Shown: in pieces, positions 1 to 27,865 of the stretch
Position numbering within the stretch: the stretch's first letter is position 1
Layout of the letters: every line of letters begins with the position of its first letter
Virus record (IMG/VR): IMGVR_UViG_2541047722_000019
Length of the DNA stretch: 29,355 nucleotides
Origin: a virus
Taxonomy: Duplodnaviria > Heunggongvirae > Uroviricota > Caudoviricetes
Strand: one strand, 5' to 3'
Notes under the pieces: model-generated
The model's database searches: none
What the model was told of the DNA's origin: nothing
Seen by the model: only the letters and a program-made list of their open reading frames with translations
Position numbers and translations under genes: made by a program

Positions 1-1917
1 GCCTGCCGGCGACCAGTTAATCAGCAACTTACCAATTCCCACAATGCCGCCGTTAAAGGCTTCCTGAATGTCAGCCCAGCGCTGTTTAAACCAACCACTG
101 ACAGCCCCCCAGTTGCGGTAGATAAGGTAAGCTGCTGTCGCGACAGCGGTGATAACGAGACCGATGGGATTCATCATCAGCGCTCGCCCAATCCAGAGAA
201 CGGCACGTGCAGCGCTCATAAAACCGCGAACGAGGCTGCCCGCCAGAACTTTGCTGAGTTTCAGTCCTCCGCTGGTCAGTCGGCTGAATCCAGTGACAAG
301 CCAGCGTAATTTGCCACCTTCTCCGAGTGCGGTAGTCAGTCGATGCCAGTTGGTCCGGAGTAAAACAGTAGTTTTCCAGACGTTCACAAAGGGGGAAATA
401 AGGAGATTCAGCCCCAGTTTGAGACCAATAGTCGCTATCTTAATCGCAAGGAGCGCACTGATGAGCTTAAAAGCCCCACTGACAAATTGCGGGTGAGTCG
501 CTACCCAGTGTTTTGTCCCCTGAATGAGTGGGAGCAGTTCCTGAGTCAGAGAAATAAAAGATGGAGCTAATTGATCGCCCAGCGTAATTGCCAGATCGCG
601 ACTGCTGACCATAAGTGTTTTAGTGGCTTCAAGGGGAGATTTCAGCCGCTGATCATAAGCACTGGCAAGCAAATCGTTATCCGCAGCCCTGAGAGCACCG
701 GCACGGATCTCTCGATATCTGTCCATGTTGGCCAGCATCGGGCGGATAAATGCCATGACCTGCATATCCGCGAACATATCGCCCAGACCAAAGTTTTTCG
801 CCAGAGCCTGAAGTGCCTCATCTCTTGCCGTATCATTCTTTATTTTCATGGCTGATTTGAAGCCGGCCAGCGCTTCGGGGCTTTTGGCATTGAGGTAACG
901 TTCTATAACACTCAACATCCCTTCAATCGGAGAGATCCCCGCAGCTTTATAACTCGCAATAGATCCCTGCAAATCAATACCCAGATCAGCAAACTGTTTC
1001 TGAGTATCGCGGGCAAAAATTTTGGTAAGAAAGTTTTTAAAATTATTGGCTGCTTCGTCGGTGGAACCTGCACCGATTTTTGCTATCTGGAGACTGGCCC
1101 CGATTTCAGCAACAGCCTCTTTTCCACTGGCAAGACCCGCCATCATTGGGGCCAGGGACTGCATCCACTTGACCTGATCCGGGATTTCAAATGACCCCTG
1201 GTCACCGGCATAAGCCATAATATTCTGAACGGCACCAAAATCTCTGGCCGCACCTTTCAGGGAGTTTTGCCAGACTGCGGCCACTTTTGCCCAGTCCTGA
1301 GCAGACGTGCGTGTTGCCGTTGCCGCGCGGGCAATATCCGGCATCAGAAAACCGATATCTGACACATTATCAATATTGTCGCTGATGAGTGAACCCACCG
1401 CCTCCTGCAGCTCATCCTGATACTGATTGTATTTAAGCGCCCAGCCTTTTATCTGTCCGGCAAGTGCATCCCGCGTTTTATTGTCATATTTTGCGGTGAT
1501 CGACATATCAATCATTTTGTCCTGAAAAGACATGGACTGCTGAACGGCAGGGGAAACCGTATGATAAACAGTCTGTGCCATGCCATACGCTTCAATCCCC
1601 TGACCATACAGCGCCATGCGGTTAGCTTTCAGCGCATCACTGGTAGCGGATGCCGCTGACAGACGGCGCTGCTGGCGCTCAATTTGCTCCATGGTGCGGC
1701 TTACCCGCAGCAGCTCGCTGTTGAGATGCTGCATCCGGGAAGAACCCAGTTGACCATAACGTTCTGTTGCACGGGTTAAAGCGTTCTGACGTTCCTGCAG
1801 GCGGCGTGAGGTATCGCTCAGGGAATCAAGCGCACGGCGGGTACCGCTCATTGCAGAACGGAATGTGCTGCCAATCATCCCGCCGATAACAACGCCGACT
1901 GAAAACTGTCCCGACAT
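1..1917 (-). CDS. Tail tape measure protein, N-terminal 639 codons (3' end beyond window)
   Basis: ATG at 1917-1915 preceded by GGAGG; frame stays open to position 1. N-terminus reads MSGQFSVGVVIGGMIGSTFRSAMSGTRRALDSLSD. Sits directly downstream of the frameshifted chaperone pair, as in Mu and P2. Confidence 0.75.
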   Translation of the reverse strand, partial: MSGQFSVGVVIGGMIGSTFRSAMSGTRRALDSLSDTSRRLQERQNALTRATERYGQLGSSRMQHLNSELLRVSRTMEQIERQQRRLSAASATSDALKANRMALYGQGIEAYGMAQTVYHTVSPAVQQSMSFQDKMIDMSITAKYDNKTRDALAGQIKGWALKYNQYQDELQEAVGSLISDNIDNVSDIGFLMPDIARAATATRTSAQDWAKVAAVWQNSLKGAARDFGAVQNIMAYAGDQGSFEIPDQVKWMQSLAPMMAGLASGKEAVAEIGASLQIAKIGAGSTDEAANNFKNFLTKIFARDTQKQFADLGIDLQGSIASYKAAGISPIEGMLSVIERYLNAKSPEALAGFKSAMKIKNDTARDEALQALAKNFGLGDMFADMQVMAFIRPMLANMDRYREIRAGALRAADNDLLASAYDQRLKSPLEATKTLMVSSRDLAITLGDQLAPSFISLTQELLPLIQGTKHWVATHPQFVSGAFKLISALLAIKIATIGLKLGLNLLISPFVNVWKTTVLLRTNWHRLTTALGEGGKLRWLVTGFSRLTSGGLKLSKVLAGSLVRGFMSAARAVLWIGRALMMNPIGLVITAVATAAYLIYRNWGAVSGWFKQRWADIQEAFNGGIVGIGKLLINWSPAG

Positions 1918-1992
1918 AGTGGTTAACCTCCGGGGAAGGTGAAAAGACGTGAGGGGATAACGCAGAACAGCCGCTACTGGCGGCTGTCTGTA

Positions 1993-2089
1993 CTATGATT
2001 TGTCGCCGTACTCGCTTTTGATTTGCTCTTCAGCCTGCTCCAGCCACATCTCCAGATCGTCAGTATCGAGGGCATCAATCTCCCCCGGC
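1993..2089 (-). CDS. Frameshift extension of the tail assembly chaperone (+1/-2 frame relative to 2075..2410)
   Basis: ORF 1993..2250 overlaps the 3' end of ORF 2075..2410 in the +1 frame. Only its distal part (EIDALDTDDLEMWLEQAEEQIKSEYGDKS) looks protein-like. A GGGGG run (plus CCCCC 2082-2086) lies two codons before the upstream stop. Confidence 0.55.
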
Positions 2090-2410
2090 TGAAACCGGAA
2101 CCATCTCGCCAGCAGCCCCTGCGCCTGCGTCAGCGCCCTGGTTGCTCTCACCCATCCCCGTGATGAGCTGAAATCGTTTCTGTAACTGCAGGTAATCAGC
2201 CAGATCCATATTGTCGAGATCTTCCGGGAGAAGACCAGTACTGCGGGCAATCAGCGGTTCGTCCCAGTCTGCCGGGTTTTTGCTGATTTTGCGCACCTGC
2301 TTCAGGTCTTTTACCGTCAGGCGTTTCAGTTCAACCAGCTCAATTCTGGTGCCTGCAGCAGTGGTGAAGGGATAAGACAATTTAAAAGTATCGGATGGGG
2401 TCTGTGACAT
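2075..2410 (-). CDS. Tail assembly chaperone (lambda G / P2 E analogue)
   Basis: 111-aa ORF immediately upstream of the tape measure gene, with AGGAG 8 nt before the ATG and an overlapping downstream ORF in another frame. This is the conserved chaperone arrangement. Confidence 0.65.
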   Translation of the reverse strand: MSQTPSDTFKLSYPFTTAAGTRIELVELKRLTVKDLKQVRKISKNPADWDEPLIARSTGLLPEDLDNMDLADYLQLQKRFQLITGMGESNQGADAGAGAAGEMVPVSAGGD

Positions 2411-2485
2411 GATTGTGCTCCTGTGTAAGTTCAGGGCAGTATGTCGGGAGAAGCGCGTGACGGATATTAAAGGAGATTAAGAAGA

Positions 2486-2501
2486 AGGGGCCGGAGCCCC
2501 T
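2486..2501 (-). terminator. Short GC hairpin (AGGGGC-CGGA-GCCCCT) after ORF 2508..2789; possible attenuator
   Basis: 6-bp GC stem with 4-nt loop, 7 nt after the stop at 2508, followed on the minus strand by a pyrimidine/T-rich stretch (TCTTCTTAATCTCCTTTAAT). Confidence 0.25.
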
Positions 2502-2507
2502 GTGATG

Positions 2508-2789
2508 TCAGCAAGTGCGAAACCCCTTGCAGTTACGCAGGAAAGCGATGAGAAGCGTCTTTCCCTCAGATTTGCCGATGCCGGAGAACCAGTGGTCGGG
2601 AGGCTCCCATGCTTCAATCAAATCCGCCAGTTTGCGGGCCTTTGAACGTGTGCAGTCAATCGGGTCATTGGTTTTACGGGTATTAAAAAGGGTTTCCACC
2701 CCCGGAATATCAAGGAGGGTAAACCACGTACCATTTGACATGCCCAGTGCCGCACATCGTCCTCCTTTATCCGTCAGTTCAACACTCAC
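2508..2789 (-). CDS. Hypothetical tail-region protein (position of Mu gp41/Y)
   Basis: 93-codon ORF with GTG start 2 nt after the tube gene stop, GGGGG 6 nt upstream. The opposite-strand ORF 2515..2808 translates to low-complexity R/S-rich sequence. Confidence 0.4.
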   Translation of the reverse strand: MSVELTDKGGRCAALGMSNGTWFTLLDIPGVETLFNTRKTNDPIDCTRSKARKLADLIEAWEPPDHWFSGIGKSEGKTLLIAFLRNCKGFRTC

Positions 2790-2791
2790 CG

Positions 2792-3313
2792 TCAGCCCCC
2801 GATATTGATACGGTAGTCAGTCAGTTGATCAACACCGCCGACCCGGAAGATGTTGGCCAGATAGTCCAGTTGCAGCAGCTCTTCACCATCCAGTACCTGT
2901 CTGATATACGTGCAGGTGAAGCTACTGGAGAACTCGGCGTTCTCGTGCTGTTTGAACGTCCCCAGCGGGTTCTTCTTGAACATAATCGTCAGGAAGGTGA
3001 CCAGCGGGATTTCGTCAATCAGCCCCTGCGAGCTGTAGCGCTGGACGCTGGAACGACACTGCAGTGCCAGCGACCTGTACGGGTTCGCGGCAGACAGCAT
3101 CGCATCGCGGTAAAAGCTGTTCCATTTGATTTCGCCTTCCAGCTTGTCAAAACCAGCCGGGAGTTCCACCTTACCCACCATCCCCAGCGCCTTGTGTTCC
3201 TGCATAATCATGGAGACATCGGGGAGTTTGACTTCCTCAGCCCGTCCCAGCAGGTTAGTACCATCCAGATAGATGTTGGCATTCGTGATGCGGTTTATCT
3301 CAATCTTTGACAT
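2792..3313 (-). CDS. Tail tube protein (P2 FII / Mu M family)
   Basis: 173 aa; C-terminal CTYIRQVLDGEELLQLDYLANIFRVGGVDQLTDYRINIGG resembles contractile-tail tube proteins. Start overlaps the sheath stop (TGATG). Confidence 0.8.
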   Translation of the reverse strand: MSKIEINRITNANIYLDGTNLLGRAEEVKLPDVSMIMQEHKALGMVGKVELPAGFDKLEGEIKWNSFYRDAMLSAANPYRSLALQCRSSVQRYSSQGLIDEIPLVTFLTIMFKKNPLGTFKQHENAEFSSSFTCTYIRQVLDGEELLQLDYLANIFRVGGVDQLTDYRINIGG

Positions 3314-4740
3314 CAGTTGCCCCCTTTCAGGGTTAACAGGTATTCCGAGGTGATCTCAGTCTCAAACGTCAGTCGCTCCAGCGGCGGTGGTGGCGTATAT
3401 TTGTAGCTCAGCAACAGGTGCCCGGCGGCCAGCTCCGTCTCCGGATTGCGGGCCGGATCAAACCAGCAACGGAAGCCCAGTACCGCACCATCACCAGTCA
3501 TTTTGCGACCGTAGGCGTTGACCGACTCCGTCAGTGCATCAATCAGCGCCTGAGTAATCGGCATGTCGATGTACTGCTGGCTGAAATAACGAATGGACTC
3601 GTTGATCACATCACCGGTGCGGCGAACGTTCTCAAAGTTACGCATATGGGTGACCGTTGGCCATGCTGCCGTCCGGTTACCCCACAGACGAAGGCCGCTG
3701 CCGTAACTGCTGAATACCGTGGTGATCCCCTGTTCGTTAAGCAGGTTCACCTCACTCTGCGGGTCATCAATCATCGCGGACAGCTGGCGCTCCACGCCGG
3801 TGATCCCCAGAATCTCCTGATTGGAGGATGACCACCAGTAGCCCTTGTCCAGATCGACTCTGGCACGCAGACCTGCTGCACGCTGGCTGAGCGGCTCCAG
3901 ACGCTCTGTGTTTGTCACCGGGTCATATACCTTCACATGCGGATAGCACAGACGGACGCGGTCGGAGCTGGTATTGAAGTTGATGGTGCCTTCCGGGCCA
4001 CGACCTGCCAGAGCCTGTGCAAAGGTGGTACCGACAGGCGCATCAATGTAGGTTACCGCGCCCAGCTTCTCTGCCATGGCGATAAGCTCAACTGCGACAC
4101 TCTTCTGGGTGCAGAACACCGGCGCAATCAGAATTTTGGCGAAATAGCCGTACAGGTTGAAGCTGTCGTTAAGCAGCTTCATGCCGGTTCGGTTTCCGGC
4201 GCTGTTCACCCCGCCGATGATGTCCGCCGCAGTCACCTTCGACGGGTCCGCGTACTCATAGCTCACCTTCACGCTGCCACCGGCCTCAATAGCCTTGCCC
4301 AGGTTCGTGAGCACACCCGCCTGCGCATCAACACGGTAGTCCGTGTTCGCCGTGTGGGTGGTGCTGCCTTCACTGTTTTTCACCACCACATTAGCGACAA
4401 CCGGATGCGCCAGTCTGGCCTGCCCTGTCGATTTGTCAAAGGTAACCACCTCATCCTCGATCGCCGTTTTATGTTTCGCCGGGTCGAGGACGTTAATGAC
4501 CAGAACGGTGCCTGCACCATGGTCATAAATCGCATCCAGCGCCTGCGGAATGGTAAAGCCGGTGAACTGGCTGCCAAATGCCGCTGCGTCTTTCTCAGAC
4601 AGGCACTGTACCAGCGTATTGACATCCCCCATCGGGGCGGTACCAATCAGGCCAATAACGGCAGATTTCACCGTTTTAACCGGGCGGGCACCGTTTTCCA
4701 CCTCAATGGTTTCGGGACCATGCAGATAGTTAGCTGCCAT
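3313..4740 (-). CDS. Tail sheath protein
   Basis: 475 aa, GGAGG 7 nt upstream of ATG, immediately upstream of the tube gene. Sheath-like motifs GYWWSSSN and RLWGNRT. Confidence 0.8.
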   Translation of the reverse strand: MAANYLHGPETIEVENGARPVKTVKSAVIGLIGTAPMGDVNTLVQCLSEKDAAAFGSQFTGFTIPQALDAIYDHGAGTVLVINVLDPAKHKTAIEDEVVTFDKSTGQARLAHPVVANVVVKNSEGSTTHTANTDYRVDAQAGVLTNLGKAIEAGGSVKVSYEYADPSKVTAADIIGGVNSAGNRTGMKLLNDSFNLYGYFAKILIAPVFCTQKSVAVELIAMAEKLGAVTYIDAPVGTTFAQALAGRGPEGTINFNTSSDRVRLCYPHVKVYDPVTNTERLEPLSQRAAGLRARVDLDKGYWWSSSNQEILGITGVERQLSAMIDDPQSEVNLLNEQGITTVFSSYGSGLRLWGNRTAAWPTVTHMRNFENVRRTGDVINESIRYFSQQYIDMPITQALIDALTESVNAYGRKMTGDGAVLGFRCWFDPARNPETELAAGHLLLSYKYTPPPPLERLTFETEITSEYLLTLKGGN

Positions 4741-4981
4741 GGGTGTCCTCCGTTTTCACTTCGCTGTCACTGCTGCTTCTGCGCTTTGGTGACTGCACAG
4801 CCGGTGTGCCGGCGGGTTTAGTCTCTTCAGGTACCGGCGTCAGATGTTTCAGCGCCACCAGTACCTTCACGTAGTCATGCTCCTCCGGCAGGGAAACCGT
4901 CTTCCCCGGCCAGAGCAGGATTTCGGTTCCGTCCGACAGCGTGACGCCGCTGGCCGGGCCGGAATAGCGGTATTCTTTCAT
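4730..4981 (-). CDS. Hypothetical protein (position of Mu gp38)
   Basis: ATG at 4981 overlaps the upstream stop (TGATG). 83 aa, last cistron before the sheath gene. Confidence 0.45.
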   Translation of the reverse strand: MKEYRYSGPASGVTLSDGTEILLWPGKTVSLPEEHDYVKVLVALKHLTPVPEETKPAGTPAVQSPKRRSSSDSEVKTEDTHGS

Positions 4982-5445
4982 CACTCGCTTTCCTCATAGT
5001 TCACTTCGGTTAACAGCGGGCCGGACGGTAAATCGCTGTCTTCGATAAAGACGCTTTCAGTCGCGAAGTCGAGGGCGTACTGCCACAGCCCCCTGACTTC
5101 ACCGATAAACACCTCGCGGGTCAGCCAGATACGGCGGCGGCAGCCGGGCGGGGTGTGGCCACCGAGAATGCGGCGGACAGCATCCAGGACATTAATCGCC
5201 CCTTTTTTACCGTTGAGCTGGCGGAAGACCACCGTGACGCAGAGCTGGATAGTCTGAGACTGGATCACCGCACCGGTATCATCCGGCCTGTCAAAGCGCG
5301 AACCGGCATAGCTCAACAGCAACGCGCCAACCGGATGGTTCAGGCGATATTCAGCCGGTTTCTCCGGGAAGTACTCCACCTGCAGTTGCGGCAGCTTCTC
5401 GCGTAACCGGGCCAGTACCGCATCAAGGACGGGCAGAACGTTCAT
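4981..5445 (-). CDS. Head-tail connector / tail completion protein (Mu gp37-like by position)
   Basis: 154 aa; ATG overlaps upstream stop (TGATG). Assignment is by position between the capsid and sheath genes. Confidence 0.5.
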   Translation of the reverse strand: MNVLPVLDAVLARLREKLPQLQVEYFPEKPAEYRLNHPVGALLLSYAGSRFDRPDDTGAVIQSQTIQLCVTVVFRQLNGKKGAINVLDAVRRILGGHTPPGCRRRIWLTREVFIGEVRGLWQYALDFATESVFIEDSDLPSGPLLTEVNYEESE

Positions 5446-5891
5446 CAGTATTTCTCCAGTAAACCGTCACGACCGCCGAAAGTAGCCGGGCGACTGCGTA
5501 CACGAAACTCGCCAGGCTCAGGCACATCTTTCTGAGTGGACGGCAGCCCCAGCGTGAGCCTGTTATCACGTAACTCCCTGAGTTGCCGCAGCGCTTCTTT
5601 GTGGTCATCCTTCACCGTATCCGGGAGGTCACCTTCCGGGCGGCGGGCGTAGAGCCGGTAACGGACCAGCGTGATGGCAATGTCCCGCAGAACAGTCGGT
5701 ATCTCTGCCAGTGGCAGGATATAGCGTCCGCGCAGATGGGCATCAATCAGCTCGTCGGCATAGCGGATACAGCTGTCCACCACACGGGTATTCACTGTTG
5801 CAGGTGAGTCGAAGTCCATCTCTTCACTGGTGAGCTCGATAAGCGTCCGCTCCGGCACCTGCGCAAGCAAATCCTCCAGGGTGCAGTACAT
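5445..5891 (-). CDS. Head-tail connector protein (Mu gp36-like by position)
   Basis: The track ORF begins with TTG at 6053. The first ATG (5891) lies 1 nt after the upstream stop and gives a 148-aa protein starting MYCTLEDLLAQ. Confidence 0.5.
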   Translation of the reverse strand: MYCTLEDLLAQVPERTLIELTSEEMDFDSPATVNTRVVDSCIRYADELIDAHLRGRYILPLAEIPTVLRDIAITLVRYRLYARRPEGDLPDTVKDDHKEALRQLRELRDNRLTLGLPSTQKDVPEPGEFRVRSRPATFGGRDGLLEKY

Positions 5892-5892
5892 G

Positions 5893-6231
5893 TCACACCC
5901 CGCGCAGGATACGAATGACGTCGCCTTCACCCCCGGCTTCATCAAGTGCAATACCACAGGATTTACCGTCGCCGGACTGCGGCACGGCTCTGGCCTGAGC
6001 ATCTGACTGAACAGCCACACCACGGCTGACAGCGGCCCCGGCCTCGACAGCAATAATGCCCAGAACGCTCACCGGCGTGCTGTCGCCGGTAACAGCATCC
6101 ACTTCGGCAACCCCGAGCGCTGCGGCACCGGCTTTACAGGGGGTATTATCTGCCCCGACAAAACGCTGCTGTGCCAGTGCTGCCCCTGCCGTTACGGTTG
6201 TGATCAGAATGACCTGCTGAGTGGTTCCCAT
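5893..6231 (-). CDS. Small head-associated protein (Ala/Gly/Val-rich)
   Basis: 112 aa; ATG with AGGAGG upstream, directly after the major capsid gene. Confidence 0.55.
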   Translation of the reverse strand: MGTTQQVILITTVTAGAALAQQRFVGADNTPCKAGAAALGVAEVDAVTGDSTPVSVLGIIAVEAGAAVSRGVAVQSDAQARAVPQSGDGKSCGIALDEAGGEGDVIRILRGV

Positions 6232-6240
6232 AACGCCTCC

Positions 6241-7194: not shown

Positions 7195-7208
7195 GCTCTC
7201 TCCTTAAA

Positions 7209-8324: not shown

Positions 8325-8460
8325 TTTGCTGTCCCGCGTTATGTTGTCGGAGACAGTTTGTGAGAAATGCAGGCCCGGCGATTTTAATCTGCTTTAGAAA
8401 ACATCAGGGGAGAAGGACAGGGAAAGCAATGCGGTGAACCGGAGGCGGTTATAAAACAGA
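8325..8460 (-). promoter_or_regulatory. Candidate late promoter region for the I-to-tail operon (Mu P_I analogue)
   Basis: Non-coding stretch inside the late cluster, upstream of the I-like gene and downstream of a terminator-like hairpin. Contains TAAAAT and a TGTCTCCGACA palindrome 18-28 nt before the ATG. Promoter elements are not verified. Confidence 0.35.
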
Positions 8461-8997: not shown

Positions 8998-8999
8998 TG

Positions 9000-18895: not shown

Positions 18896-18947
18896 AGATT
18901 TTGAGTCTTTGTAAAAGGTTATCACATATCGCAAAAGAGGTATGCAG

Positions 18948-19256
18948 ATGAGTAAGACGAATGTTTCAAGCTCCGGCAGTCGCATCCTCCGGGTACTCAA
19001 AGCGCTGCGCGGTCATGCCCTGAACGGTATTTCCAACGGTGAACTGGCGGCAGCACTGCACGAGTCACCGGCAAACATCAACCGGGCACTCAACACCCTC
19101 ATTGAAGAAGGGTTGGCCCTGAAACTGGAAAACGGGCGTTTCGCGCCGGGCATCCAGTTACTGCAGATCGCTATGGCCCACAGTAACGAGATGGCACGTG
19201 CACAGGATCGCATTAACGAAATCAACCAACGTGTCATTTCAGGTAGTCGTTTGTAA
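18948..19256 (+). CDS. Winged-helix-like small DNA-binding protein
   Basis: Segment RILRVLKALRGHALNGISNGELAAALHESPANINRALNTLIEEGL looks like a wHTH. Start taken at the second ATG (18948), which has better SD spacing to AAGAGG. Confidence 0.45.
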   Translation: MSKTNVSSSGSRILRVLKALRGHALNGISNGELAAALHESPANINRALNTLIEEGLALKLENGRFAPGIQLLQIAMAHSNEMARAQDRINEINQRVISGSRL

Positions 19257-19266
19257 GGAGTAATAA

Positions 19267-20178: not shown

Positions 20179-20181
20179 CCA

Positions 20182-21951: not shown

Positions 21952-21961
21952 GGAGGGAAAC

Positions 21962-23128
21962 ATGCTGGTACTGAAGCAGCAACTGAAAGAAGCCCGTATT
22001 CCACAGGCGGTGGTGGCGAGAGCTGTCGATGTTTCTGAGGCCACGCTGGCCCAGATTGTGAATCATAACGCGTGGCCCCGCACCAGCCCCGGAGAAGTGC
22101 GCCGGCGTCTTGCGTCCTGGCTGGAAAGTCAGGGGATTGATACAACGAAGAGTTTTGATGCTGTACAGGGCGCGGCCACGCCCCGTACAGCGGGTACCAC
22201 AGATAAAACGAGCCTCAGTGAGGAAGAGAATATGTTACTCAAAAAACAGGTGTTATTTCCAGCAACCAAAAAAGCGTTTGGTCTTTTCCGTGACCCGTTC
22301 GCCGACGAAGCCATGCAGGGTTCTGATGATGTGTTCACCACCCCGGATATTCGCTACGTGCGTGAGGCGTTGTACCAGACAGCCCGTCATGGTGGGTTTA
22401 TGGCCGTCATCGGTGAGTCCGGTGCGGGTAAATCCACGCTGCGCCGCGACCTGACTGAACGTATCAACCGCGAGAATGCGCCGGTAATTGTTATCGAGCC
22501 ATACATCATCGCTATGGAAGACAACGATGTGAAAGGGAAAACCCTGAAGGCAGCAGCGATTGCCGAAGCCATTATCAGTACCATCGCACCACTGGAAAGC
22601 ATCAGACGCAGTCAGGACGCCCGCTTTCGCCAGTTGCATCGCGTCCTGAAAGACAGCAGCCAGGCGGGGTTCAGCCACGTTCTGGTGATTGAGGAGGCCC
22701 ACAGTCTGCCCATTCCGACACTGAAACACCTCAAACGCTTTTTTGAGCTGGAGTCCGGTTTCAAAAAACTGCTGTCCATCGTGCTGATTGGCCAGCCGGA
22801 ACTGGCGACAAAACTGTCTGAACGCAATATGGAAGTCCGTGAAGTCGTTCAGCGCTGTGAGGTGGTCGAACTTCTGCCTCTGGACAATAACCTTGAAGAG
22901 TTTCTGACGTTCAAACTGCAACGGGCCGGTAAACAACTGACGGACATTATGGACGCCAGCGCAGTGGATGCCATACGTGCCCGCCTGAGCAATCCGGGAA
23001 GTCATCGTAAAAATATGGTCAGCCTGCTGTATCCGCTGGCCGTCAGTAACCTGGTAATAGCCGCCATGAATCTGGCCGCTGAAATCGGGGTTCCACAGGT
23101 CAACGCTGACGTTGTCAAAGGGGTTTAA
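21962..23128 (+). CDS. Transposition ATPase (MuB / TniB-like)
   Basis: Walker A GESGAGKST and Walker B-like HVLVIEEAH. ATG 21962 with GAGGAGGGA upstream (the track ORF starts at TTG 21935). Immediately downstream of the transposase. Confidence 0.8.
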   Translation: MLVLKQQLKEARIPQAVVARAVDVSEATLAQIVNHNAWPRTSPGEVRRRLASWLESQGIDTTKSFDAVQGAATPRTAGTTDKTSLSEEENMLLKKQVLFPATKKAFGLFRDPFADEAMQGSDDVFTTPDIRYVREALYQTARHGGFMAVIGESGAGKSTLRRDLTERINRENAPVIVIEPYIIAMEDNDVKGKTLKAAAIAEAIISTIAPLESIRRSQDARFRQLHRVLKDSSQAGFSHVLVIEEAHSLPIPTLKHLKRFFELESGFKKLLSIVLIGQPELATKLSERNMEVREVVQRCEVVELLPLDNNLEEFLTFKLQRAGKQLTDIMDASAVDAIRARLSNPGSHRKNMVSLLYPLAVSNLVIAAMNLAAEIGVPQVNADVVKGV

Positions 23129-23130
23129 TA

Positions 23131-23400
23131 ATGAAATCCACCACAGGTATCAACCAGCAAATCAGCAAAGTGCAGTCAGCCATTATGGCGCTTAAGGCGA
23201 CGAACACGGATGTACAAAGCATCACCATCAGGGGTAACAAACCTGTCATCCGCGTTTCCCGGAGTGCGCATTGCATGCGCATGCTTGAGCAGGGAAAGGC
23301 CTGTTATCTGTATACCGGTCATGACCACAGGGGACATTTCCGTCAGGGCGTTTTCGAACTGCACGGCTGTCGCGTCGTGTGGCCGGAATCTTTGTGGTAA
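23131..23400 (+). CDS. Hypothetical early protein
   Basis: 89-aa ORF starting 3 nt after the B-like gene stop. Confidence 0.4.
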   Translation: MKSTTGINQQISKVQSAIMALKATNTDVQSITIRGNKPVIRVSRSAHCMRMLEQGKACYLYTGHDHRGHFRQGVFELHGCRVVWPESLW

Positions 23401-23427
23401 TCAGCACAACAGGAGGAGTCATAAAAT

Positions 23428-23958
23428 ATGGCAAAAAGTACAAAAGGGGCAAAACGTATCAAAGCCGCAGCAGCACTCTGGGTGCCGGGGACACGCGAAG
23501 AGGTCATTGAGGGAATCAGACTGCTTGGTGACGCGCAACGTGAACTGGTCAGGGCTGAAACAGAAATGAATGACACCATTGGCGACATCACCGCACGTTA
23601 TGCCCCGCTCACCGAGAGCCTGAAAAAACGCATGGCCGAACTGCAGTCCGGTATTCAGACATGGTGTGAGGCACACCGTGATGAACTGACCGGCAACGGG
23701 AAGGTGAAGTTCGCTAACCTCACCACCGGCGAGGTGCAGTGGCGAAACCGTCCGCCGTCAGTCAGTATCCGTGGGGCGGATAATGTTATTGAATTACTGA
23801 GACGTCTGGGGCTTGAGCGCTTTATCCGTGTAAAGGAGGAAATAAATAAAGACGCCATCCTGAATGAAAAGGACGCCGTGAAAAATATTCCCGGTATTAC
23901 CATAAAAAGTGATATTGAGGATTTTTCAATAATTCCTTTTGAGCAGAATGTGCAGTAA
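23428..23958 (+). CDS. gam: Gam, host-nuclease inhibitor (Ku-like DNA end-binding protein)
   Basis: 176 aa with extended identity to Mu Gam as I recall it, including TEMND, WCEA.RDELT, RPPSVSIRG, LGL.RFIR.K.EINK and the C-terminal GIT.KS.IEDFSIIPFEQ. Confidence 0.9.
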   Translation: MAKSTKGAKRIKAAAALWVPGTREEVIEGIRLLGDAQRELVRAETEMNDTIGDITARYAPLTESLKKRMAELQSGIQTWCEAHRDELTGNGKVKFANLTTGEVQWRNRPPSVSIRGADNVIELLRRLGLERFIRVKEEINKDAILNEKDAVKNIPGITIKSDIEDFSIIPFEQNVQ

Positions 23959-24054
23959 AAACAGCATATAAGCTATTTAAAACAGCCTTTTCTTTTTTAT
24001 TCCGGCATCAGCGCCGTGGGCTTCTGCACGCCGGAAACAGAGGAGAATTAAATC

Positions 24055-24249
24055 ATGATATTTAAATGTATTCAGTGCGAGAGGGATATAACAGCCCTGC
24101 GTTTTCACAGCGCCATCGCCGTGATGTCCGGTAAGTACCACGTACCTGCAGTACGCGTCACCCTGGTCTGTCCGTACTGCAGTCAGCATTTTTCGGCAGA
24201 CGTGCCCGTCATGGAATTCTCCCGCCCTGACAGGGAGGACTCGCAATGA
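24055..24249 (+). CDS. Small zinc-ribbon-like protein
   Basis: 64 aa with two CxxC pairs (CIQC ... CPYC); GAGGAG upstream. Confidence 0.45.
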   Translation: MIFKCIQCERDITALRFHSAIAVMSGKYHVPAVRVTLVCPYCSQHFSADVPVMEFSRPDREDSQ

Positions 24250-24518
24250 TTACCCCACAGGAAGCACGACAGCGCACCCGAACCCTTGTTGAACACTATG
24301 TCAACGAGTGTGAATGCCGCGACCTCACCGATGTGAAGCACGTCCTGACGGCGCTAATCAGCATGACCGCTCAGGCCATTGTGGCGACCAACGGAAAGGC
24401 GGCTGCCCTGCAGGTACTGGTGAACACACTCACCCACACGGCAGAGCACGATGTGCCGTACCGGATGGAAACCACTGCAGAAGGCGGCCTGAACATCACC
24501 GTCGACCGGAAACACTGA
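24246..24518 (+). CDS. Hypothetical early protein
   Basis: 90 aa; ATG overlaps upstream stop (ATGA); GGGAGGA upstream. Confidence 0.45.
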   Translation: MITPQEARQRTRTLVEHYVNECECRDLTDVKHVLTALISMTAQAIVATNGKAAALQVLVNTLTHTAEHDVPYRMETTAEGGLNITVDRKH

Positions 24519-24527
24519 GGGCGCGGC

Positions 24528-24833
24528 ATGACACGGAACACCGAACTCACCCGCACCGCCCTCTACCGTCTGGCCCTGCAGCGTTTCGGGCCGGACGCAC
24601 AGGCCCTGAAACTGACAGAAGAGGCCGCTGAACTGGCGGCCAGTGCCGCCCGCAACCTGAACGGACAGGGCAGCGAAAGTGACCTCGCGGCAGAGCTGGC
24701 AGACGTGGAAATCATGACAGAGCAGCTGCGCCTTCAGGGAATGGACCGGCTGATTGACTTCCACAAACAGAAAAAACTGGAACGCCTTGCCGCACGGCTG
24801 GGCGTCATGTACACCGGAGATACTGAACAATGA
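24528..24833 (+). CDS. MazG-like nucleotide pyrophosphohydrolase
   Basis: 101 aa, all-helical, with the MazG metal-binding pattern EEAAE ... AELADVEIM. Confidence 0.6.
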   Translation: MTRNTELTRTALYRLALQRFGPDAQALKLTEEAAELAASAARNLNGQGSESDLAAELADVEIMTEQLRLQGMDRLIDFHKQKKLERLAARLGVMYTGDTEQ

Positions 24834-25513
24834 CAGACCAGGATAAACACATTGAGAAACTGAAAAAGTTGCTGGCGCTGGCCGCATCCGGCAACCCTCA
24901 CGAGGCCGCTCTGGCACTGCGCCGTGCCCGTAAACTGATGGATGTTCACGGCATCACACATTCCGACATCGCCATGAGTGATATTGATGAAACCATCAGT
25001 CACTACTGGCCGACAGGCAGCCTCCGTCCACCGCGCTACATGCTGGGCCTGATGAACATCATCCGCGAGGCATTTGGTGTTAACTCCATCATTCACCCCG
25101 GCACATATCCGGGTGTGGGGTTCTACGGCAACCGGGAACGGGCTGCACTGGCTGCGTACACCTGGGAAGTGCTGGCCCGCCAGCTGAAAAAGGCGCGTCA
25201 GCAATATATCAGCGCACAGAACAAAAGAATAAAAACTGCCACCCGTACCAGCCGTGGTGACCAGTTTGCTGAAGGCTGGGTGCTGGCCGTTATCAGTGAA
25301 ATACAGTCCTTCGCCCTGACCGATGACGAACGTGAACTGATGCAGCAGTGGCTGGAACATAAATACCCGCAGACGCAAACCACCAGGGCGCGTAAACCGG
25401 GAAGAAGCCGCAATGGCGACGCCTCGCGCTATGCGGGGTTTCTTGAAGGGCAGAACGTCAGACTGCACCGCCCGGTCAGTGGGCAGGAACAACAGAAACT
25501 GGAGGCCAGATGA
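24830..25513 (+). CDS. Hypothetical early protein with helical N-terminal domain
   Basis: 227 aa; ATG overlaps upstream stop (ATGA). N-terminus EKLKKLLALAASGNPHEAALALRRARKLM. Confidence 0.5.
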   Translation: MTDQDKHIEKLKKLLALAASGNPHEAALALRRARKLMDVHGITHSDIAMSDIDETISHYWPTGSLRPPRYMLGLMNIIREAFGVNSIIHPGTYPGVGFYGNRERAALAAYTWEVLARQLKKARQQYISAQNKRIKTATRTSRGDQFAEGWVLAVISEIQSFALTDDERELMQQWLEHKYPQTQTTRARKPGRSRNGDASRYAGFLEGQNVRLHRPVSGQEQQKLEAR

Positions 25514-25740
25514 TTACGCTATCAGGTAAAAGCCGGAAATTAAAAGCCTGCCGAATATCTGCCAGATACCTTTTTGCCCGCGCCTTTTTTAAGAACGTCA
25601 GGCCGGGGATCACAATTGGTGTTATTGCCGGACGCGAACAGGTTGAAAAATACATGTCAGGTGCATGGTGGAATAACGACCCTGTCATTGCTGCCCGTAA
25701 TATTCATATCAGTTGGGGGGATATTCAGAATGACGGCTGA
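25510..25740 (+). CDS. Hypothetical small protein
   Basis: 76 aa; GGAGG upstream; ATG overlaps upstream stop (ATGA). Confidence 0.4.
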   Translation: MITLSGKSRKLKACRISARYLFARAFFKNVRPGITIGVIAGREQVEKYMSGAWWNNDPVIAARNIHISWGDIQNDG

Positions 25741-25945
25741 ATCTGTTGTATGTGCCCTGTTCTGGTATTGTTTTGTCGGTTGGTGTACTGCTGAACTGCA
25801 CCGCCGTTCAGGGTTTTATTCACGTTACAGTGGTGCTGGCTACTGGATTAGCTGGTCGGTGATGTTCCTGTGCTGGCCTGTGGCGCTTCCTTTATATGTC
25901 GATTATATCGGTGGCGCAGGTAAAAGGAGCAACGATGATGACTAA
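25730..25945 (+). CDS. Small membrane protein
   Basis: 71 aa from ATG 25730 with two hydrophobic helices (VVCALFWYCFVGWC and WISWSVMFLCWPVALPLYV). The track ORF 25574..25945 has a non-protein-like N-terminal extension. Confidence 0.4.
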   Translation: MTAESVVCALFWYCFVGWCTAELHRRSGFYSRYSGAGYWISWSVMFLCWPVALPLYVDYIGGAGKRSNDDD

Positions 25946-26387
25946 ACAACGTCTTATCCAGCTCATTCATATTGCCCGTAATGAACTGGGTATGGATGAA
26001 GACACCTACCGCCAGATGTTACAGGGGCTGACCGGTAAAGCCTCAACCAAAGGAATGGATACCACACAACTAAACTGCGTGCTGGAATCCATGAAAAGGA
26101 AAGGCTTTCGCGTTAAGCCTGCCGGAAAAGCCAGCTCCGGTTTACCGCTGGATAACCATCCGCAGTCCAGGAAAATCCGTGCGCTATGGCTTGAAATGGC
26201 TGCTGCCGGCATTGTTCGTGACCGTTCAGAAAATGCATTAGCGCGGTGGATCAAGCGGGAAACGGGCATCAGCGCCCTGCGCTGGCTCAGTACTGAACAG
26301 GCAAGCAGTGTTATTGAGAAACTGAAGAAGTGGCAGCGCAGAGCTGCGGGAGTCAAACATGAGCGACCTGAATCAGTTTCGAAGTAA
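25934..26387 (+). CDS. GemA-like early protein
   Basis: ATG with AAGGAG upstream; immediately upstream of the Mor-like gene, as gemA is in Mu. Confidence 0.55.
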
Positions 26388-26757
26388 AGGGCCGGAACTC
26401 CTGGTGGAGCTGGCACAGCATACCTCTGAGACCGTTCGCGAGATTATTGATATTGAGCCCGCAATTGCCGACCAGATTGGTCAGGCCGTCGCGAACCGAA
26501 TGATGCAGGTCTGGGGCGGGCAAAACGTTTATTTCCCGATGGGCATGGTATGGAAGGTCAGTCAGCGCGACCGGGAAATCTTCAGGGAGTTTAACGGACG
26601 CAACCACCACGAACTGGCCCGCAAGTTTGGTGTTTCGCTTCAGTGGGTCTACAGCGTGGTTAAGCGGGTCAGAAAAGAAGAACTGGATCGGATGCAGGGC
26701 AGGTTGTTTGATGAAGATCTGCCAGAGGAGACGAAAGACGTTAACAAATCCAGATAA
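26359..26757 (+). CDS. mor: Mor/C-family transcriptional activator
   Basis: 132 aa; GGQNVYFP and FNGRNHHELARKFGVSLQWVYSVVKRVR match the Mor/C C-terminal DNA-binding region. Last early cistron. Confidence 0.8.
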   Translation: MSDLNQFRSKGPELLVELAQHTSETVREIIDIEPAIADQIGQAVANRMMQVWGGQNVYFPMGMVWKVSQRDREIFREFNGRNHHELARKFGVSLQWVYSVVKRVRKEELDRMQGRLFDEDLPEETKDVNKSR

Positions 26758-26801
26758 TTCCTGCTTGTTAAAGTCCTTTCAAAAATCTCCTTATTGTATA
26801 A

Positions 26802-26835
26802 AAGCACGGTAGACCCCTTACCGTGCTTTTTTTAT
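26802..26835 (+). terminator. Rho-independent terminator ending the early operon
   Basis: Perfect 10-bp stem AAGCACGGTA / TACCGTGCTT, 7-nt loop, followed by TTTTTTTAT. Confidence 0.65.
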
Positions 26836-26871
26836 GCTCTCTCTTTAGTATTCAGGATGCAGGGAGAAAAT

Positions 26872-27504
26872 ATGTTTGACGTTTCGTTGTTAAATCTGCC
26901 ATGGGCAACACTGGTGACCCTGACCAGTGGCTATATTGGGTATTTTATTGCGAATGTGGGACTGAAGGATCACCACAAGCCCATTGAGGTGACTTTTTCT
27001 TCGCTGATTTTTGGCCTGACAGCAATGATGGCTTACCAGGCTGTTATGTGGGCAGGTCTGAATGCCTGGCTGGCAACACCACCAGCACTTCTGTGTGCCC
27101 TTACATGCGGTGCGTGGTGGCGCAGGTACGGTCGCAAATGGATGTACAGATTACTGTGGAATAATGATATTTCATGGTCTGACGATACCAGCTCAGCATG
27201 GCAGGCAATGTTTGATCAAACAGGCTTCAGCGTTACCGAGGTCAGAGTGATTCTTCGCGATGGTTCCGGTATGATGTCACGGCTGCCAGGGAACTTTGAA
27301 GAGTGGCCTAACGGTCCGTTTACCCTGGGGAATAAAGGCGATATGGTTCTTTACGTCACGCACAGCAGCCCTTCAGGCAGTAACGAATGGGAAGAGTATA
27401 AAGGCGTGGTTGATAAGTACTGGGGAGCTCTGGCAACCTATATTCCAGCAGATCAGATTGCCAGAGTGGAGATCAGGCGCGTTCGTGCAACGAACGATGA
27501 ATGA
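26872..27504 (+). CDS. Membrane protein with three N-terminal helices and a soluble C-terminal domain; end-proximal cargo candidate
   Basis: ATG 26872 with GGGAG 7 nt upstream; the track ORF from 26794 would start inside the terminator. Located after the terminator, as the last gene before the prophage end. Confidence 0.55.
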   Translation: MFDVSLLNLPWATLVTLTSGYIGYFIANVGLKDHHKPIEVTFSSLIFGLTAMMAYQAVMWAGLNAWLATPPALLCALTCGAWWRRYGRKWMYRLLWNNDISWSDDTSSAWQAMFDQTGFSVTEVRVILRDGSGMMSRLPGNFEEWPNGPFTLGNKGDMVLYVTHSSPSGSNEWEEYKGVVDKYWGALATYIPADQIARVEIRRVRATNDE

Positions 27505-27507
27505 TGT

Positions 27508-27669
27508 TTATTTTTTCCCTGGGGCAGGGGCTGCCGGCATAGTGGTTTTATTGGCAGAGGAAGACGATTCTCCTTTTCTACCGGAATCGCGCTCGAACGT
27601 CACGATGTGCTTGCTTTTGGGCTTTTCTGAGTAATCCAGGCTATCATGCTTATTGTTTTGAGTAGTCAT
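27508..27669 (-). CDS. Possible 53-aa hydrophilic ORF convergent with the membrane protein gene
   Basis: ATG with AGGA upstream; MTTQNNKHDSLDYSEKPKSKHIVTFERDSGRKGESSSSANKTTMPAAPAPGKK. Short and partly low-complexity, so could be spurious. Confidence 0.2.
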   Translation of the reverse strand: MTTQNNKHDSLDYSEKPKSKHIVTFERDSGRKGESSSSANKTTMPAAPAPGKK

Positions 27670-27819
27670 TGGAATCATCCTTTTTGTTGCGGGTCATGTT
27701 TCAGCAAACTCGATTCTAAGTTGCCAGGAAGGATGATTTCAATGCCCGACTTATCTATCGTATAGCGGAAAAGAATTTCAGTTCTGTTCACCAGAACCCA
27801 TGTTAACCCACTCCAATTC

Positions 27820-27865
27820 GTTATTTATCTCACGGATCCCCCTTCATTTATCTCATGTCTGATCA
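27820..27865. repeat. Prophage terminus with direct repeats (candidate transposase-binding sites)
   Basis: ATTTATCTCA occurs at 27823-27832 and 27846-27855, with a related CTTATCTATCG at ~27750. On the host-facing strand the element end reads 5'-TGATCAGACATGAGATAAATG. Confidence 0.45.

What the first reader, a model, noticed from the sequence alone, without database searches (positions are those of the whole stretch)
1..27865. Divergent two-arm architecture with an internal repressor, unlike Mu's collinear layout
In Mu the repressor sits at the left end and early, middle and late genes are all read in one direction. Here the late operon is on the minus strand and the early operon on the plus strand, diverging from a central repressor/cargo region, and the early operon reads toward the prophage end. 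This matches what I recall of BcepMu-type relatives rather than Mu itself, and it changes which end carries the regulatory region.
Basis: partly seen in the sequence, partly recalled or inferred. Interest (0 to 1): 0.45.

Follow-up and report, generated by a model that had tools for sequence, protein, structure and literature searches.

The report
BcepMu-type transposable prophage, inverted early block

Summary
Twenty genes from 15727 down to 2075, plus a tape-measure ORF open to base 1, are on the minus strand. Seventeen genes from 18707 to 27504 are on the plus strand. Between them lie a 3-kb accessory region and the repressor. Position 27865 is the exact prophage terminus. Base 1 is only the window edge; about 10.5 kb of tail genes and the other end lie outside.

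The BcepMu interpretation is supported. Twenty-seven of 42 proteins match BcepMu in strictly collinear order across both arms, including the transposase at 68% identity. Only 7 match Mu, and both arms map to the same Mu strand. The termini share BcepMu's geometry: TG…CA with paired sites 12–20 and 35–43 nt from each end.

The composite-element refuter fails. No end-like sites lie between the arms. Four full copies in other E. coli genomes sit in different genes, each about 38.3 kb with its own 6-bp target duplication. Sixty of 63 informative loci from other bacteria have the same layout.

This architecture is published for BcepMu and B3, and a 99%-identical phage record (PhiKM) exists. Interest is low. 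Minor extras are a conserved 15-nt candidate late-promoter motif, a single Mor/C-type activator, and three collinear relatives.

The parts
1..1917 (-). N-terminal 639 codons of the tail tape-measure gene. The late arm continues out of the window.
   Evidence: The ORF is open from 1917 to base 1. It corresponds to the tape-measure CDS in the full prophage copies.
2075..8324 (-). Distal late transcription unit. Protease/scaffold 7209-8324, major head 6241-7194, connector genes 4730-6231, tail sheath 3313-4740, tube 2792-3316, tail assembly 2075-2410.
   Evidence: tblastn to BcepMu gp32-gp41 gives 31-76% identity in collinear order. Pfam Phage_cap_E matches.
8382..8396 (-). Conserved 15-nt motif TAAAGCAGATTAAAA, 58 nt upstream of the protease/scaffold start codon. 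Candidate late promoter element.
   Evidence: It is one of only 2 matches in the window, against 0.06 expected by chance. The same position is occupied in BcepMu, KP12 and PhiKM. Terminator-like hairpins lie just upstream at 8460-8473 and 8539-8556.
8539..15727 (-). Proximal late transcription unit. Holin 15377-15727, SLT endolysin 14637-15374, spanin-like 13997-14608, two small genes, TerS 12818-13360, TerL 11298-12821, portal 9802-11298, F-like 9000-9821, G-like 8539-8997.
   Evidence: Pfam Holin_2-3, SLT and Terminase_6N match. Identity to BcepMu gp21-gp31 is 30-62% in collinear order, and TerL, portal, F and G also hit Mu.
15780..15794 (-). Conserved 15-nt motif TAACGCGCTTTAAAA, 53 nt upstream of the holin start codon. 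Candidate late promoter element.
   Evidence: In 33 of 54 related genome loci the motif lies 33-65 nt upstream of holin on the same strand. That accounts for 33 of only 51 hits in 3.16 Mb.
15858..18151 (.). Central accessory (cargo) region. 247-aa protein 15858-16601 (+), 134-aa protein 16577-16981 (-), 71-aa protein 16980-17195 (+), Dam-type N6-adenine methylase 17387-18151 (+).
   Evidence: There are no BcepMu counterparts. The three small proteins fall in PHROG families of unknown function and the methylase matches Pfam MethyltransfD12; PADLOC gives only methyltransferase models. The holin-to-ner spacer ranges from 1.4 to 4.6 kb in 44 related loci.
18158..18182 (-). Terminator-like hairpin (11-bp stem followed by a T run) downstream of the repressor gene.
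   Evidence: Consensus scan only.
18268..18726 (-). HTH_3 (XRE/cI-type) repressor. RefSeq uses the TTG start at 18726, but the ATG at 18606 is the more likely start.
   Evidence: Pfam HTH_3 matches. Identity to BcepMu gp17 is 36%, with the alignment beginning at the residue encoded at 18606. The annotated N-terminus overlaps the promoter-like site and the ner-like gene.
18607..18706 (.). Divergent switch region. It holds an early-promoter candidate TTGACT-17-CATAAT at 18631-18659 (+) and a direct repeat GTGAG-N6-CTGCAC at 18607-18622 and 18638-18653 that may be operators.
   Evidence: Promoter scan scores 10 of 12. The sequence is shown. Operator function is inferred.
18707..26757 (+). Early operon. 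ner-like 18707-18895, IclR-type HTH 18948-19256, DUF3102 19267-20178, rve transposase 20182-21951, AAA+ MuB analogue 21962-23128, Gam 23428-23958, NTP-pyrophosphohydrolase-like 24528-24833, DUF2786 24830-25513, GemA 25938-26387, Mor/C-family activator 26359-26757, plus small ORFs.
   Evidence: Pfam and PHROG hits. Transposase is 68% and AAA+ 59% identical to BcepMu gp09 and gp08. Gam is 62% identical to Mu Gam and absent from BcepMu. It is the only Mor/C homologue in the whole prophage.
26800..26830 (+). Strong terminator-like hairpin (13-bp stem followed by a T run), 43 nt after the Mor stop codon. Probable end of the early operon.
   Evidence: Consensus scan only.
26872..27669 (.). End-proximal accessory genes: 210-aa protein 26872-27504 (+) and 53-aa ORF 27508-27669 (-).
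   Evidence: They match PHROG families of unknown function and have no Pfam hit. In 27 related loci where the paired sites were found they lie within about 0.4-1.0 kb of the Mor start, against 1506 bp here.
27823..27865 (-). Early-arm terminus. Read inward it is TGATCAGACAT-GAGATAAATG-N13-GAGATAAATA: a terminal TG/CA plus two putative transposase-binding sites 23 nt apart.
   Evidence: The geometry matches the other end of the prophage and both BcepMu ends. The paired motif occurs only at the termini. The junction was defined against four other insertions.
27866..29355 (-). Host DNA: the 5' 1490 nt of the E. coli ptsA-type PTS gene (HPr plus enzyme I fusion, named 'ptsP' by PGAP), interrupted by the prophage.
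   Evidence: It is 100% identical to a core E. coli gene of 2502 nt located next to frwC and fsa. Pfam PEP-utilizers_C is cut at profile position 135 of 293.

Best explanation
Window 1-27865 is the right-hand 27.9 kb of a single, probably functional, roughly 38.3-kb transposable prophage of the BcepMu family. It has an rve/Tn552-type transposase, Mu-like head genes and P2-like tail genes, and it is inserted in E. coli ptsA. Relative to Mu, the whole immunity-plus-early block (repressor, ner ... transposase ... Mor) is inverted as one unit. The Mor end therefore abuts a terminus, and the repressor faces the lysis and late genes across a variable accessory region.

Proposed mechanism, with shown and inferred steps marked. 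In the lysogen, the HTH repressor (18268-18606) shuts off the early promoter in the 100-bp divergent region (inferred). On induction, the promoter candidate at 18631-18659 drives the plus-strand operon toward the end. This produces the transposase and its AAA+ partner. These act on the two-plus-two terminal sites and generate 6-bp target duplications. The sites and the duplications are shown; the biochemistry is inferred from the family.

The last early gene encodes the only Mor/C-family activator in the prophage. It would act in trans on at least two late promoters on the opposite strand, marked by the conserved motif TAA[A/C]GCNN[A/T]TTAAAA upstream of the holin gene and the protease/scaffold gene. 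The motif positions are shown; the link to the activator is inferred. Because late activation is in trans, the relative orientation of the early and late blocks would not matter for the cascade. This fits the existence of both layouts among phages with this transposase family.
For: Collinearity with BcepMu across both arms: 27 of 42 proteins, all in order and on the opposite strand, and the same at nucleotide level. Inversion relative to Mu: both arms map to the Mu plus strand. The annotated BcepMu and B3 records show the same layout. [quoted passage not shown] Termini: paired sites at nt 12-20 and 35-43 of both ends, matching both BcepMu ends. One unit: four full copies of 38,132-38,341 bp in irp1, yeiB, phnP and upaG, each with TG...CA ends and its own 6-bp duplication, plus the window's copy in ptsA. 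The early arm and central region are present in 111 of 5426 complete E. coli genomes. Phage record PhiKM is 99.3% identical over 12.8 kb. Across other bacteria, 60 of 63 informative loci have TerL upstream on the opposite strand. In 27 loci the paired sites occur once, downstream of Mor and facing inward. Motif. Single Mor/C homologue. Domains.
Against: Nothing contradicts the architecture. The limits are these. Only one terminus is in the window; the other was read from near-identical copies elsewhere. No expression, transposition or induction data exist here. Promoter, operator and terminator calls are consensus matches. The link between the Mor-family protein and the 15-nt motif is an inference from position and conservation, and 21 of 54 loci, mainly more distant Pseudomonas-type relatives, lack the motif at one mismatch or fewer. 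Nucleotide similarity to BcepMu itself is patchy, about 66-76% over roughly 8 kb, so this is a family-level relative rather than a close one.
Confidence: 0.93

Rival explanations
1. The window is a composite: two adjacent mobile elements, a P2/Mu-like late-gene element and a separate transposon-like early module, lying back to back with a second set of ends between the arms.
For: The element is a deep evolutionary mosaic. It combines a Tn552-type transposase, Mu-like head genes, tail genes annotated as P2-like and a Mu-type Gam absent from BcepMu. The central 3 kb is variable accessory DNA.
Against: The paired terminal motif occurs only at the two outer termini of the full prophage and nowhere between the arms. 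The single extra 9-mer match is unpaired and lies inside TerS. Four independent insertions each split one host gene, with a 6-bp duplication flanking the whole 38.3 kb. The same junction of arms is kept in BcepMu, B3, KP12, PhiKM and 60 of 63 loci from other genera. No internal end was found in any of 80 loci.
Confidence: 0.02
2. The layout is a private rearrangement or assembly artefact: a recent inversion within an otherwise collinear Mu-like prophage in this one genome.
For: Three related loci (L040, L046, L076) with the same transposase family do have the collinear, Mu-like order. Inversion of the block has therefore happened at least once in the family's history.
Against: The same sequence across the junction (window 15000-27865) is found at 100% identity in many independently assembled complete genomes, 111 with at least 80% cover. 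It is also in phage records. The layout is the majority state across genera and is published.
Confidence: 0.01
3. The prophage has this architecture but is a defective, immobile remnant, so the two arms no longer act as an early-to-late cascade.
For: Some copies carry pseudogenes in the tape-measure or tail-fibre genes. The window lacks the last 10.5 kb, so completeness of this particular copy is unknown.
Against: All 42 gene models in the window are intact. Near-identical copies sit at five or more different sites with intact ends and duplications, which points to recent transposition. Near-identical DNA has been deposited as phage records: PhiKM, Phi06_2974 B and the KP12 clone.
Confidence: 0.04

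Closest known systems
Burkholderia phage BcepMu (NC_005882) and the BcepMu family (phiE255; SalMu, PhotoMu and ChromoMu prophages)
   Same: The two-arm layout is the same. Mor/C is at the terminus, the early genes including the rve transposase and the ExeA-like AAA+ protein are on one strand, and the repressor, lysis cassette, Mu-like heads and P2-like tails are on the other. Twenty-seven of 42 proteins are collinear (transposase 68%, sheath 76% identity). The ends are TG...CA with two sites at nt 12-20 and 35-43. The same 15-nt motif sits upstream of the holin gene and the protease/scaffold gene.
   Different: Nucleotide similarity is only patchy. The central and mid-early accessory genes differ: here Dam, three unknown genes, a Mu-type Gam and DUF2786, versus BcepMu gp03-07 and gp18-20. 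There is about 1 kb of extra cargo between Mor and the end. Full copies carry a Gin-like invertase and an invertible tail-fibre segment, which BcepMu lacks (PMC2771037). There is no acyltransferase gp53.
Escherichia phage PhiKM (PQ738613, deposited as Bcepmuvirus), Klebsiella phage KP12 clone KP12_2 (OM835952) and Escherichia phage Phi06_2974 B (KM389306)
   Same: This is essentially the same enterobacterial phage lineage. PhiKM is 99.3% identical over window 4-12776 and 93-98% identical over most of the rest. KP12_2 and Phi06_2974 B are about 85% identical over about 75% of the first 25 kb. Gene order and strands are the same.
   Different: The immunity region (repressor and operators, roughly 18.1-18.9 kb) and part of the central cargo are diverged or replaced, so these phages are probably heteroimmune. 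The deposited records are partial or permuted.
Pseudomonas phage B3 (NC_006548) and B3-like phages
   Same: The transposase family is the same (57% identity). The inverted early block is the same, with Mor at the extreme end, a DUF3102 gene upstream of the transposase, the repressor at the interface, then holin and endolysin. The inversion is stated in PMC5977238.
   Different: B3 has a siphovirus tail module. The 15-nt motif was not found in the first 16 kb of B3. The accessory genes differ.
Escherichia phage Mu (NC_000929)
   Same: Both are transposable temperate phages with TG...CA ends. They share homologues of Gam (62%), GemA, Mor/C, TerL (49%), portal, F and G. Full copies of this prophage carry a Gin-type invertase next to the tail-fibre end, as Mu does.
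   Different: Mu is collinear, with the repressor at the left end. Its MuA and MuB proteins give no detectable tblastn hit to the proteins here. Mu has two activators, Mor and C, against one here. Mu makes a 5-bp target duplication (my own knowledge) against 6 bp here. The terminal site arrangement also differs.

Membership tests
BcepMu family of transposable phages (sensu Summer et al. 2004; Lavigne et al. 2009) | rve (Tn552/IS1604-type) DDE transposase homologous to BcepMu gp09, not MuA | tested here: met
   68% identity over 577 of 589 aa to gp09. Pfam rve matches. No hit to Mu.
BcepMu family of transposable phages (sensu Summer et al. 2004; Lavigne et al. 2009) | ExeA-like AAA+ protein immediately downstream of the transposase | tested here: met
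   59% identity to gp08. Pfam AAA_22 matches and RefSeq names it 'ExeA family'.
BcepMu family of transposable phages (sensu Summer et al. 2004; Lavigne et al. 2009) | Two gene clusters on opposite strands, with the lysogeny switch at their interface and Mor/C at the terminus (early block inverted relative to Mu) | tested here: met
   Literature statement in PMC2771037.
BcepMu family of transposable phages (sensu Summer et al. 2004; Lavigne et al. 2009) | Collinearity with BcepMu through lysis, Mu-like head and P2-like tail modules | tested here: met
   All 19 late-arm proteins with a hit are in BcepMu order from gp21 to gp41. The P2 likeness rests on the BcepMu record's annotation and was not compared directly with P2.
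BcepMu family of transposable phages (sensu Summer et al. 2004; Lavigne et al. 2009) | Terminal TG...CA with about 23-bp-spaced imperfect repeats at both ends | tested here: met
   Sites G[AC]GATA[AT][AT]T lie at nt 12-20 and 35-43 of both ends here and in BcepMu. The late-arm end was read from L004, not from the window.
BcepMu family of transposable phages (sensu Summer et al. 2004; Lavigne et al. 2009) | Insertion by transposition at many sites, with a target duplication | tested here: met
   Five different host genes are interrupted. Four have both junctions read, each with a 6-bp duplication.
BcepMu family of transposable phages (sensu Summer et al. 2004; Lavigne et al. 2009) | Replicative transposition and virion DNA carrying variable host sequences at its ends | not testable with these tools
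   This needs virion DNA sequencing or transposition assays.
ICTV genus Bcepmuvirus (type BcepMu) | High genome-wide nucleotide identity to BcepMu (genus threshold about 70% over the genome; my own knowledge) | tested here: not met
   blastn aligns only about 8.2 kb of 27.9 kb at 66-76% identity. The 'Bcepmuvirus' label on PhiKM is the depositor's.
Muvirus / Mu-type organisation | Repressor at the left end with early, middle and late genes collinear on one strand | tested here: not met
   the early block is inverted relative to the late block.
Muvirus / Mu-type organisation | MuA-type transposase and MuB | tested here: not met
   tblastn finds no similarity between the transposase or AAA+ protein and Mu. 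Pfam gives only the rve core.
Muvirus / Mu-type organisation | Two-step activation by Mor and then C | tested here: not met
   There is a single Mor/C-family gene in the whole 38.3-kb prophage, about equally similar to Mu Mor (31%) and Mu C (35%).

The most novel reading that the evidence does not exclude
BcepMu-type phages may run a two-tier cascade. The single Mor/C-family activator, encoded last in the early operon, would directly switch on at least two late promoters marked by the conserved element TAA[A/C]GCNN[A/T]TTAAAA upstream of the holin gene and the protease/scaffold gene. If late activation is entirely in trans, the immunity-plus-early block could flip as a unit without loss of function. 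That would explain why both the inverted layout (60 of 63 loci) and the collinear layout (3 of 63) exist with one transposase family. I could not check whether the motif is already described in Summer et al. 2004, because that paper is not held.
Probability: 0.5. Interest if true: 0.3.

Novelty: already known. Interest (0 to 1): 0.12.

Why it matters
The main value is for annotation. The element should be labelled a BcepMu-family (SalMu-like) transposable prophage, not a Mu variant or a pair of elements. Its right boundary can be set at 27865, with 6-bp target duplications expected. The lineage is present in about 2% of complete E. coli genomes and interrupts genes including irp1, upaG, phnP, yeiB and ptsA, so it is a recurrent insertional mutagen in clinical isolates. 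The architecture itself has been in the literature since 2004, so it opens no new question. The conserved late-promoter motif and the rare collinear relatives are small, testable additions to knowledge of how this phage group is regulated and rearranged.

Tried and rejected
- **Composite-element hypothesis.** I searched single, paired and terminus-anchored end motifs on both strands of the window, the full prophage and BcepMu. Paired sites occur only at the outer termini. The same holds in 27 related loci. Rejected.
- **Direct similarity to Mu.** Nucleotide and protein comparisons found only 3 short nucleotide segments and 7 proteins. That was enough to show the relative inversion but not membership.
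- **Defence-system reading of the central cargo.** PADLOC gave only methyltransferase models for Dam and one insignificant hit (E = 0.0046). PHROGs gave families of unknown function. Not pursued.
- **Ends of the three collinear relatives.** The BcepMu-type paired-site pattern gave no hits there. Their termini remain undefined.
- **Original BcepMu and B3 papers.** Neither is held in the library. I relied on later open papers that restate the organisation and on the GenBank records.
- **Target-duplication length for BcepMu in the literature.** The search found nothing usable.
- **tRNA scan.** None found.

Full report
**What is in the window.** I used the RefSeq gene models of a prophage that is 99.98% identical to window 1-27871 (E. 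coli MS20675, locus L004). All 42 models translate cleanly in the window. Twenty consecutive genes from 15727 down to 2075 lie on the minus strand. The tape-measure ORF at 1917..1 is open to the window edge.

The minus-strand genes are holin, SLT endolysin, a spanin-like gene, TerS, TerL, portal, F-like, G-like, protease/scaffold, major head, connector genes, sheath and tube. Seventeen consecutive genes from 18707 to 27504 lie on the plus strand. They include a ner-like DNA-binding protein, an IclR-type HTH protein, a DUF3102 protein, an rve transposase, an AAA+ (ExeA-like) protein, Gam, a pyrophosphohydrolase-like protein, a DUF2786 protein, GemA and a Mor-family activator.

Between the arms lie three genes of unknown function, a Dam-type methylase and, on the minus strand, an HTH_3 repressor. 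GC skew changes sign near 15 kb. No tRNA gene is present.

**Boundaries.** Position 27865 is the exact prophage terminus. Identity to copies inserted elsewhere in E. coli stops at ...CATGTCTGATCA|. The remaining 1490 nt are the 5' part of a core E. coli gene, 100% identical to strain ATCC 11775. That gene is the 2502-nt ptsA-type HPr plus enzyme I fusion next to frwC and fsa, named 'ptsP' by PGAP. The insertion cuts it inside the PEP-binding domain.

Coordinate 1 is only the window edge. In full copies the element continues for about 10.5 kb through the rest of the tape-measure gene, baseplate genes, tail-fibre genes and a Gin-like invertase to the other terminus.

**Test of the interpretation.** Against BcepMu (NC_005882), 27 of 42 window proteins have tblastn hits. 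Every hit is in collinear order. Window minus-strand genes map to the BcepMu plus strand and window plus-strand genes to the BcepMu minus strand. The window is therefore the reverse complement of the published BcepMu orientation across both arms.

Identities are 68% for the transposase, 59% for the AAA+ protein, 76% for the sheath, 62% for TerL, 56% for Mor, 46% for the ner-like protein and 36% for the repressor. blastn segments are likewise all collinear and on the opposite strand.

Against Mu, only 7 proteins hit. Late-arm genes (G, F, portal, TerL) and early-arm genes (Gam, GemA, Mor) all map to the Mu plus strand (nucleotide level). This shows directly that one arm is inverted relative to Mu. 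Because the repressor is transcribed opposite to the early operon in both phages, the simplest description is one inversion of the whole immunity-plus-early block.

The annotated BcepMu record shows Mor/C at the extreme end, early genes 1-16 on one strand, repressor gp17 at the interface, and then lysis, head and tail genes. B3 shows the same arrangement.

**Literature.** Lavigne et al. [quoted passage not shown] Enterobacterial relatives (SalMu, PhotoMu) are cited in PMC3417384.

From memory, the abstract of Summer et al. 2004 says the left-end region of BcepMu is inverted with respect to Mu. That paper is not held, so this point rests on my own knowledge.

**Ends and the composite-element refuter.** Read inward, the early-arm end is TGATCAGACAT GAGATAAATG N13 GAGATAAATA. 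The late-arm end, read from L004, is TGATGCGCCGC GCGATAAATG N13 GCGATAAATG. Both BcepMu ends have the same geometry, TGAAG... G[A/C]GATATTTC N13 GCGATA[T/A][T/A]T[C/T]. Each end thus has TG/CA termini and two putative transposase sites 23 nt apart.

A degenerate search for the paired sites finds them only at the outer termini of the full prophage and of BcepMu. None lies between the arms. The only other single match in the window is unpaired and sits inside TerS.

Four full copies in other E. coli genomes interrupt irp1, yeiB, phnP and upaG. They are 38,132-38,341 bp long. Each is flanked by its own 6-bp direct duplication: ACTTGC, CTTTAT, GCGAGG and CCAATA. The two arms therefore move as one transposable unit, and the refuter is not met. 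Mu makes 5-bp duplications (my own knowledge), so the 6-bp length is one more difference from Mu.

**Breadth.** The 12.9 kb spanning holin, centre and early arm is present at 80% cover or more in 111 of 5426 complete E. coli genomes. Deposited phage records PhiKM (99.3% identity over 12.8 kb), KP12 clone 2 and Phi06_2974 B carry the same layout.

A scan of one genome per species with a transposase alignment (A1) returned 80 loci from Enterobacterales, Burkholderiales, Neisseriales, Pseudomonadales and others. TerL was detectable within the flanks in 63 of them. In 60 it lies upstream on the opposite strand, while ner-like, DUF3102, AAA+, GemA and Mor are always on the transposase strand in the same order.

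In 27 loci the paired terminal sites occur exactly once, downstream of Mor and facing inward. The holin-to-ner spacer ranges from 1.4 to 4.6 kb with a median of 2.8 kb; it is 2979 bp in the window. 'Central cargo region' is therefore an apt description.

**How it most likely works.** Shown: the gene content, the terminal sites, the target duplications, and the positions of conserved motifs. Inferred: everything about expression.

The switch region at 18607-18706 contains the best sigma-70-like site of the central 4 kb, TTGACT-17-CATAAT at 18631-18659 on the plus strand, 48 nt upstream of the ner-like gene. It also contains a direct repeat GTGAG-N6-CTGCAC at 18607-18622 and 18638-18653 that could be operators. 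This placement, and the start of the BcepMu gp17 alignment, suggest that the repressor begins at the ATG at 18606 rather than the annotated TTG at 18726.

A terminator-like hairpin follows the repressor gene (18158-18182). Another, with a 13-bp stem, follows Mor (26800-26830).

The prophage has only one Mor/C-family gene, about equally similar to Mu Mor and Mu C. A 15-nt motif, TAA[A/C]GCNN[A/T]TTAAAA, occurs exactly twice in the window, against 0.06 expected by chance. Both copies are on the late strand, 53 nt upstream of the holin start codon and 58 nt upstream of the protease/scaffold start codon.

The same two positions are occupied in BcepMu, KP12 and PhiKM. In 33 of 54 related loci the motif lies 33-65 nt upstream of holin. 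Those 33 account for most of the 51 hits in 3.16 Mb.

I therefore propose a two-tier cascade. The early operon reads toward the end and finishes with the activator. The activator then turns on at least two late units on the other strand, in trans. Trans-activation would make the relative orientation of the blocks irrelevant.

That fits three loci (L040, L046, L076) which have the same transposase family but the Mu-like collinear order Mor, holin, TerS, TerL. In L040 the repressor is divergent from the ner-like gene, as in Mu.

**Verdict.** The layout is the published hallmark of the BcepMu and B3 groups, and this very lineage is already in the phage and genome databases.

By family-defining features the element is a member of the BcepMu family. 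By nucleotide identity it would not fall in the genus Bcepmuvirus with BcepMu itself. It is not a Mu-type element in transposase, layout, activator number or duplication length.

Novelty is 'already known' and interest is low. The late-promoter motif, the single activator, the 6-bp duplications and the rare collinear relatives are modest side results worth a note rather than a follow-up programme.

Noticed in passing
window 15780-15794 and 8382-8396 (minus strand): A conserved 15-nt motif TAA[A/C]GCNN[A/T]TTAAAA sits 53 and 58 nt upstream of the holin and protease/scaffold start codons. The same two positions are occupied in BcepMu, KP12 and PhiKM, and the motif lies upstream of holin in 33 of 54 related loci. 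It is a candidate activator-dependent late promoter element.
   Followed up: partly
L040 (Burkholderiaceae MAG), L046 (Rhodocyclus tenuis), L076 (Proteobacteria MAG): Three of 63 informative loci with the same transposase family have the Mu-like collinear order (Mor, holin, TerS, TerL on the transposase strand). Both orientations of the immunity-plus-early block therefore exist in this family. Their termini could not be found with the BcepMu-type end pattern.
   Followed up: partly
window 27866-29355; L009 489-2990: The prophage interrupts the E. coli ptsA-type PTS gene (HPr plus enzyme I fusion, 'ptsP' in PGAP) after nt 1490 of 2502. Other copies interrupt irp1 (yersiniabactin synthase), upaG (adhesin), phnP and yeiB.
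   Followed up: yes
L004, L006, L007, L008 junctions (outside the window); window 27865: All four fully read insertions have 6-bp target-site duplications, not the 5 bp of Mu.
   Followed up: yes
window 26800-27669: A strong terminator-like hairpin lies right after Mor, followed by about 1 kb of extra genes before the terminus: a 210-aa protein and a 53-aa ORF on the opposite strand with its own promoter-like site at 27742-27713. In the 27 related loci where the paired sites were found, they lie within about 0.4-1.0 kb of the Mor start, against 1506 bp here.
   Followed up: partly
window 18606-18726: The RefSeq start of the repressor (TTG at 18726) overlaps the ner-like gene by 20 nt and covers the early-promoter candidate. 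The ATG at 18606 fits the homology to BcepMu gp17 and the Pfam HTH_3 domain better.
   Followed up: partly
window 15858-17195: Three small central genes of unknown function (phrog_3787 with a weak P-loop-like match, phrog_2266, phrog_4490) lie next to a Dam methylase. They have no BcepMu counterpart and no defence-system match.
   Followed up: partly
window 1-101; L008 10818-11613: The tape-measure gene contains a 261-bp tandem repeat of about 3 copies. The gene is 2952 nt in strain S7 and 3213 nt in strains 3347558 and GN04979, exactly one 261-nt unit apart, and is annotated as a pseudogene in MS20675.
   Followed up: partly
L004 1393-5576, L006 34809-39044, L007 35043-39226, L008 1116-5298 (outside the window): A Gin-like recombinase and a tail-fibre and assembly gene segment at the late-arm end are found in different arrangements among E. 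coli copies. This indicates an active invertible host-range segment like Mu's G region, which BcepMu is reported to lack (PMC2771037).
   Followed up: no
window 18099-18947 compared with L001 and L002: The repressor and operator region is the least conserved part between this prophage and its closest phage relatives. It is unaligned in KP12 and partly unaligned in PhiKM, which suggests heteroimmune variants of one phage lineage.
   Followed up: no
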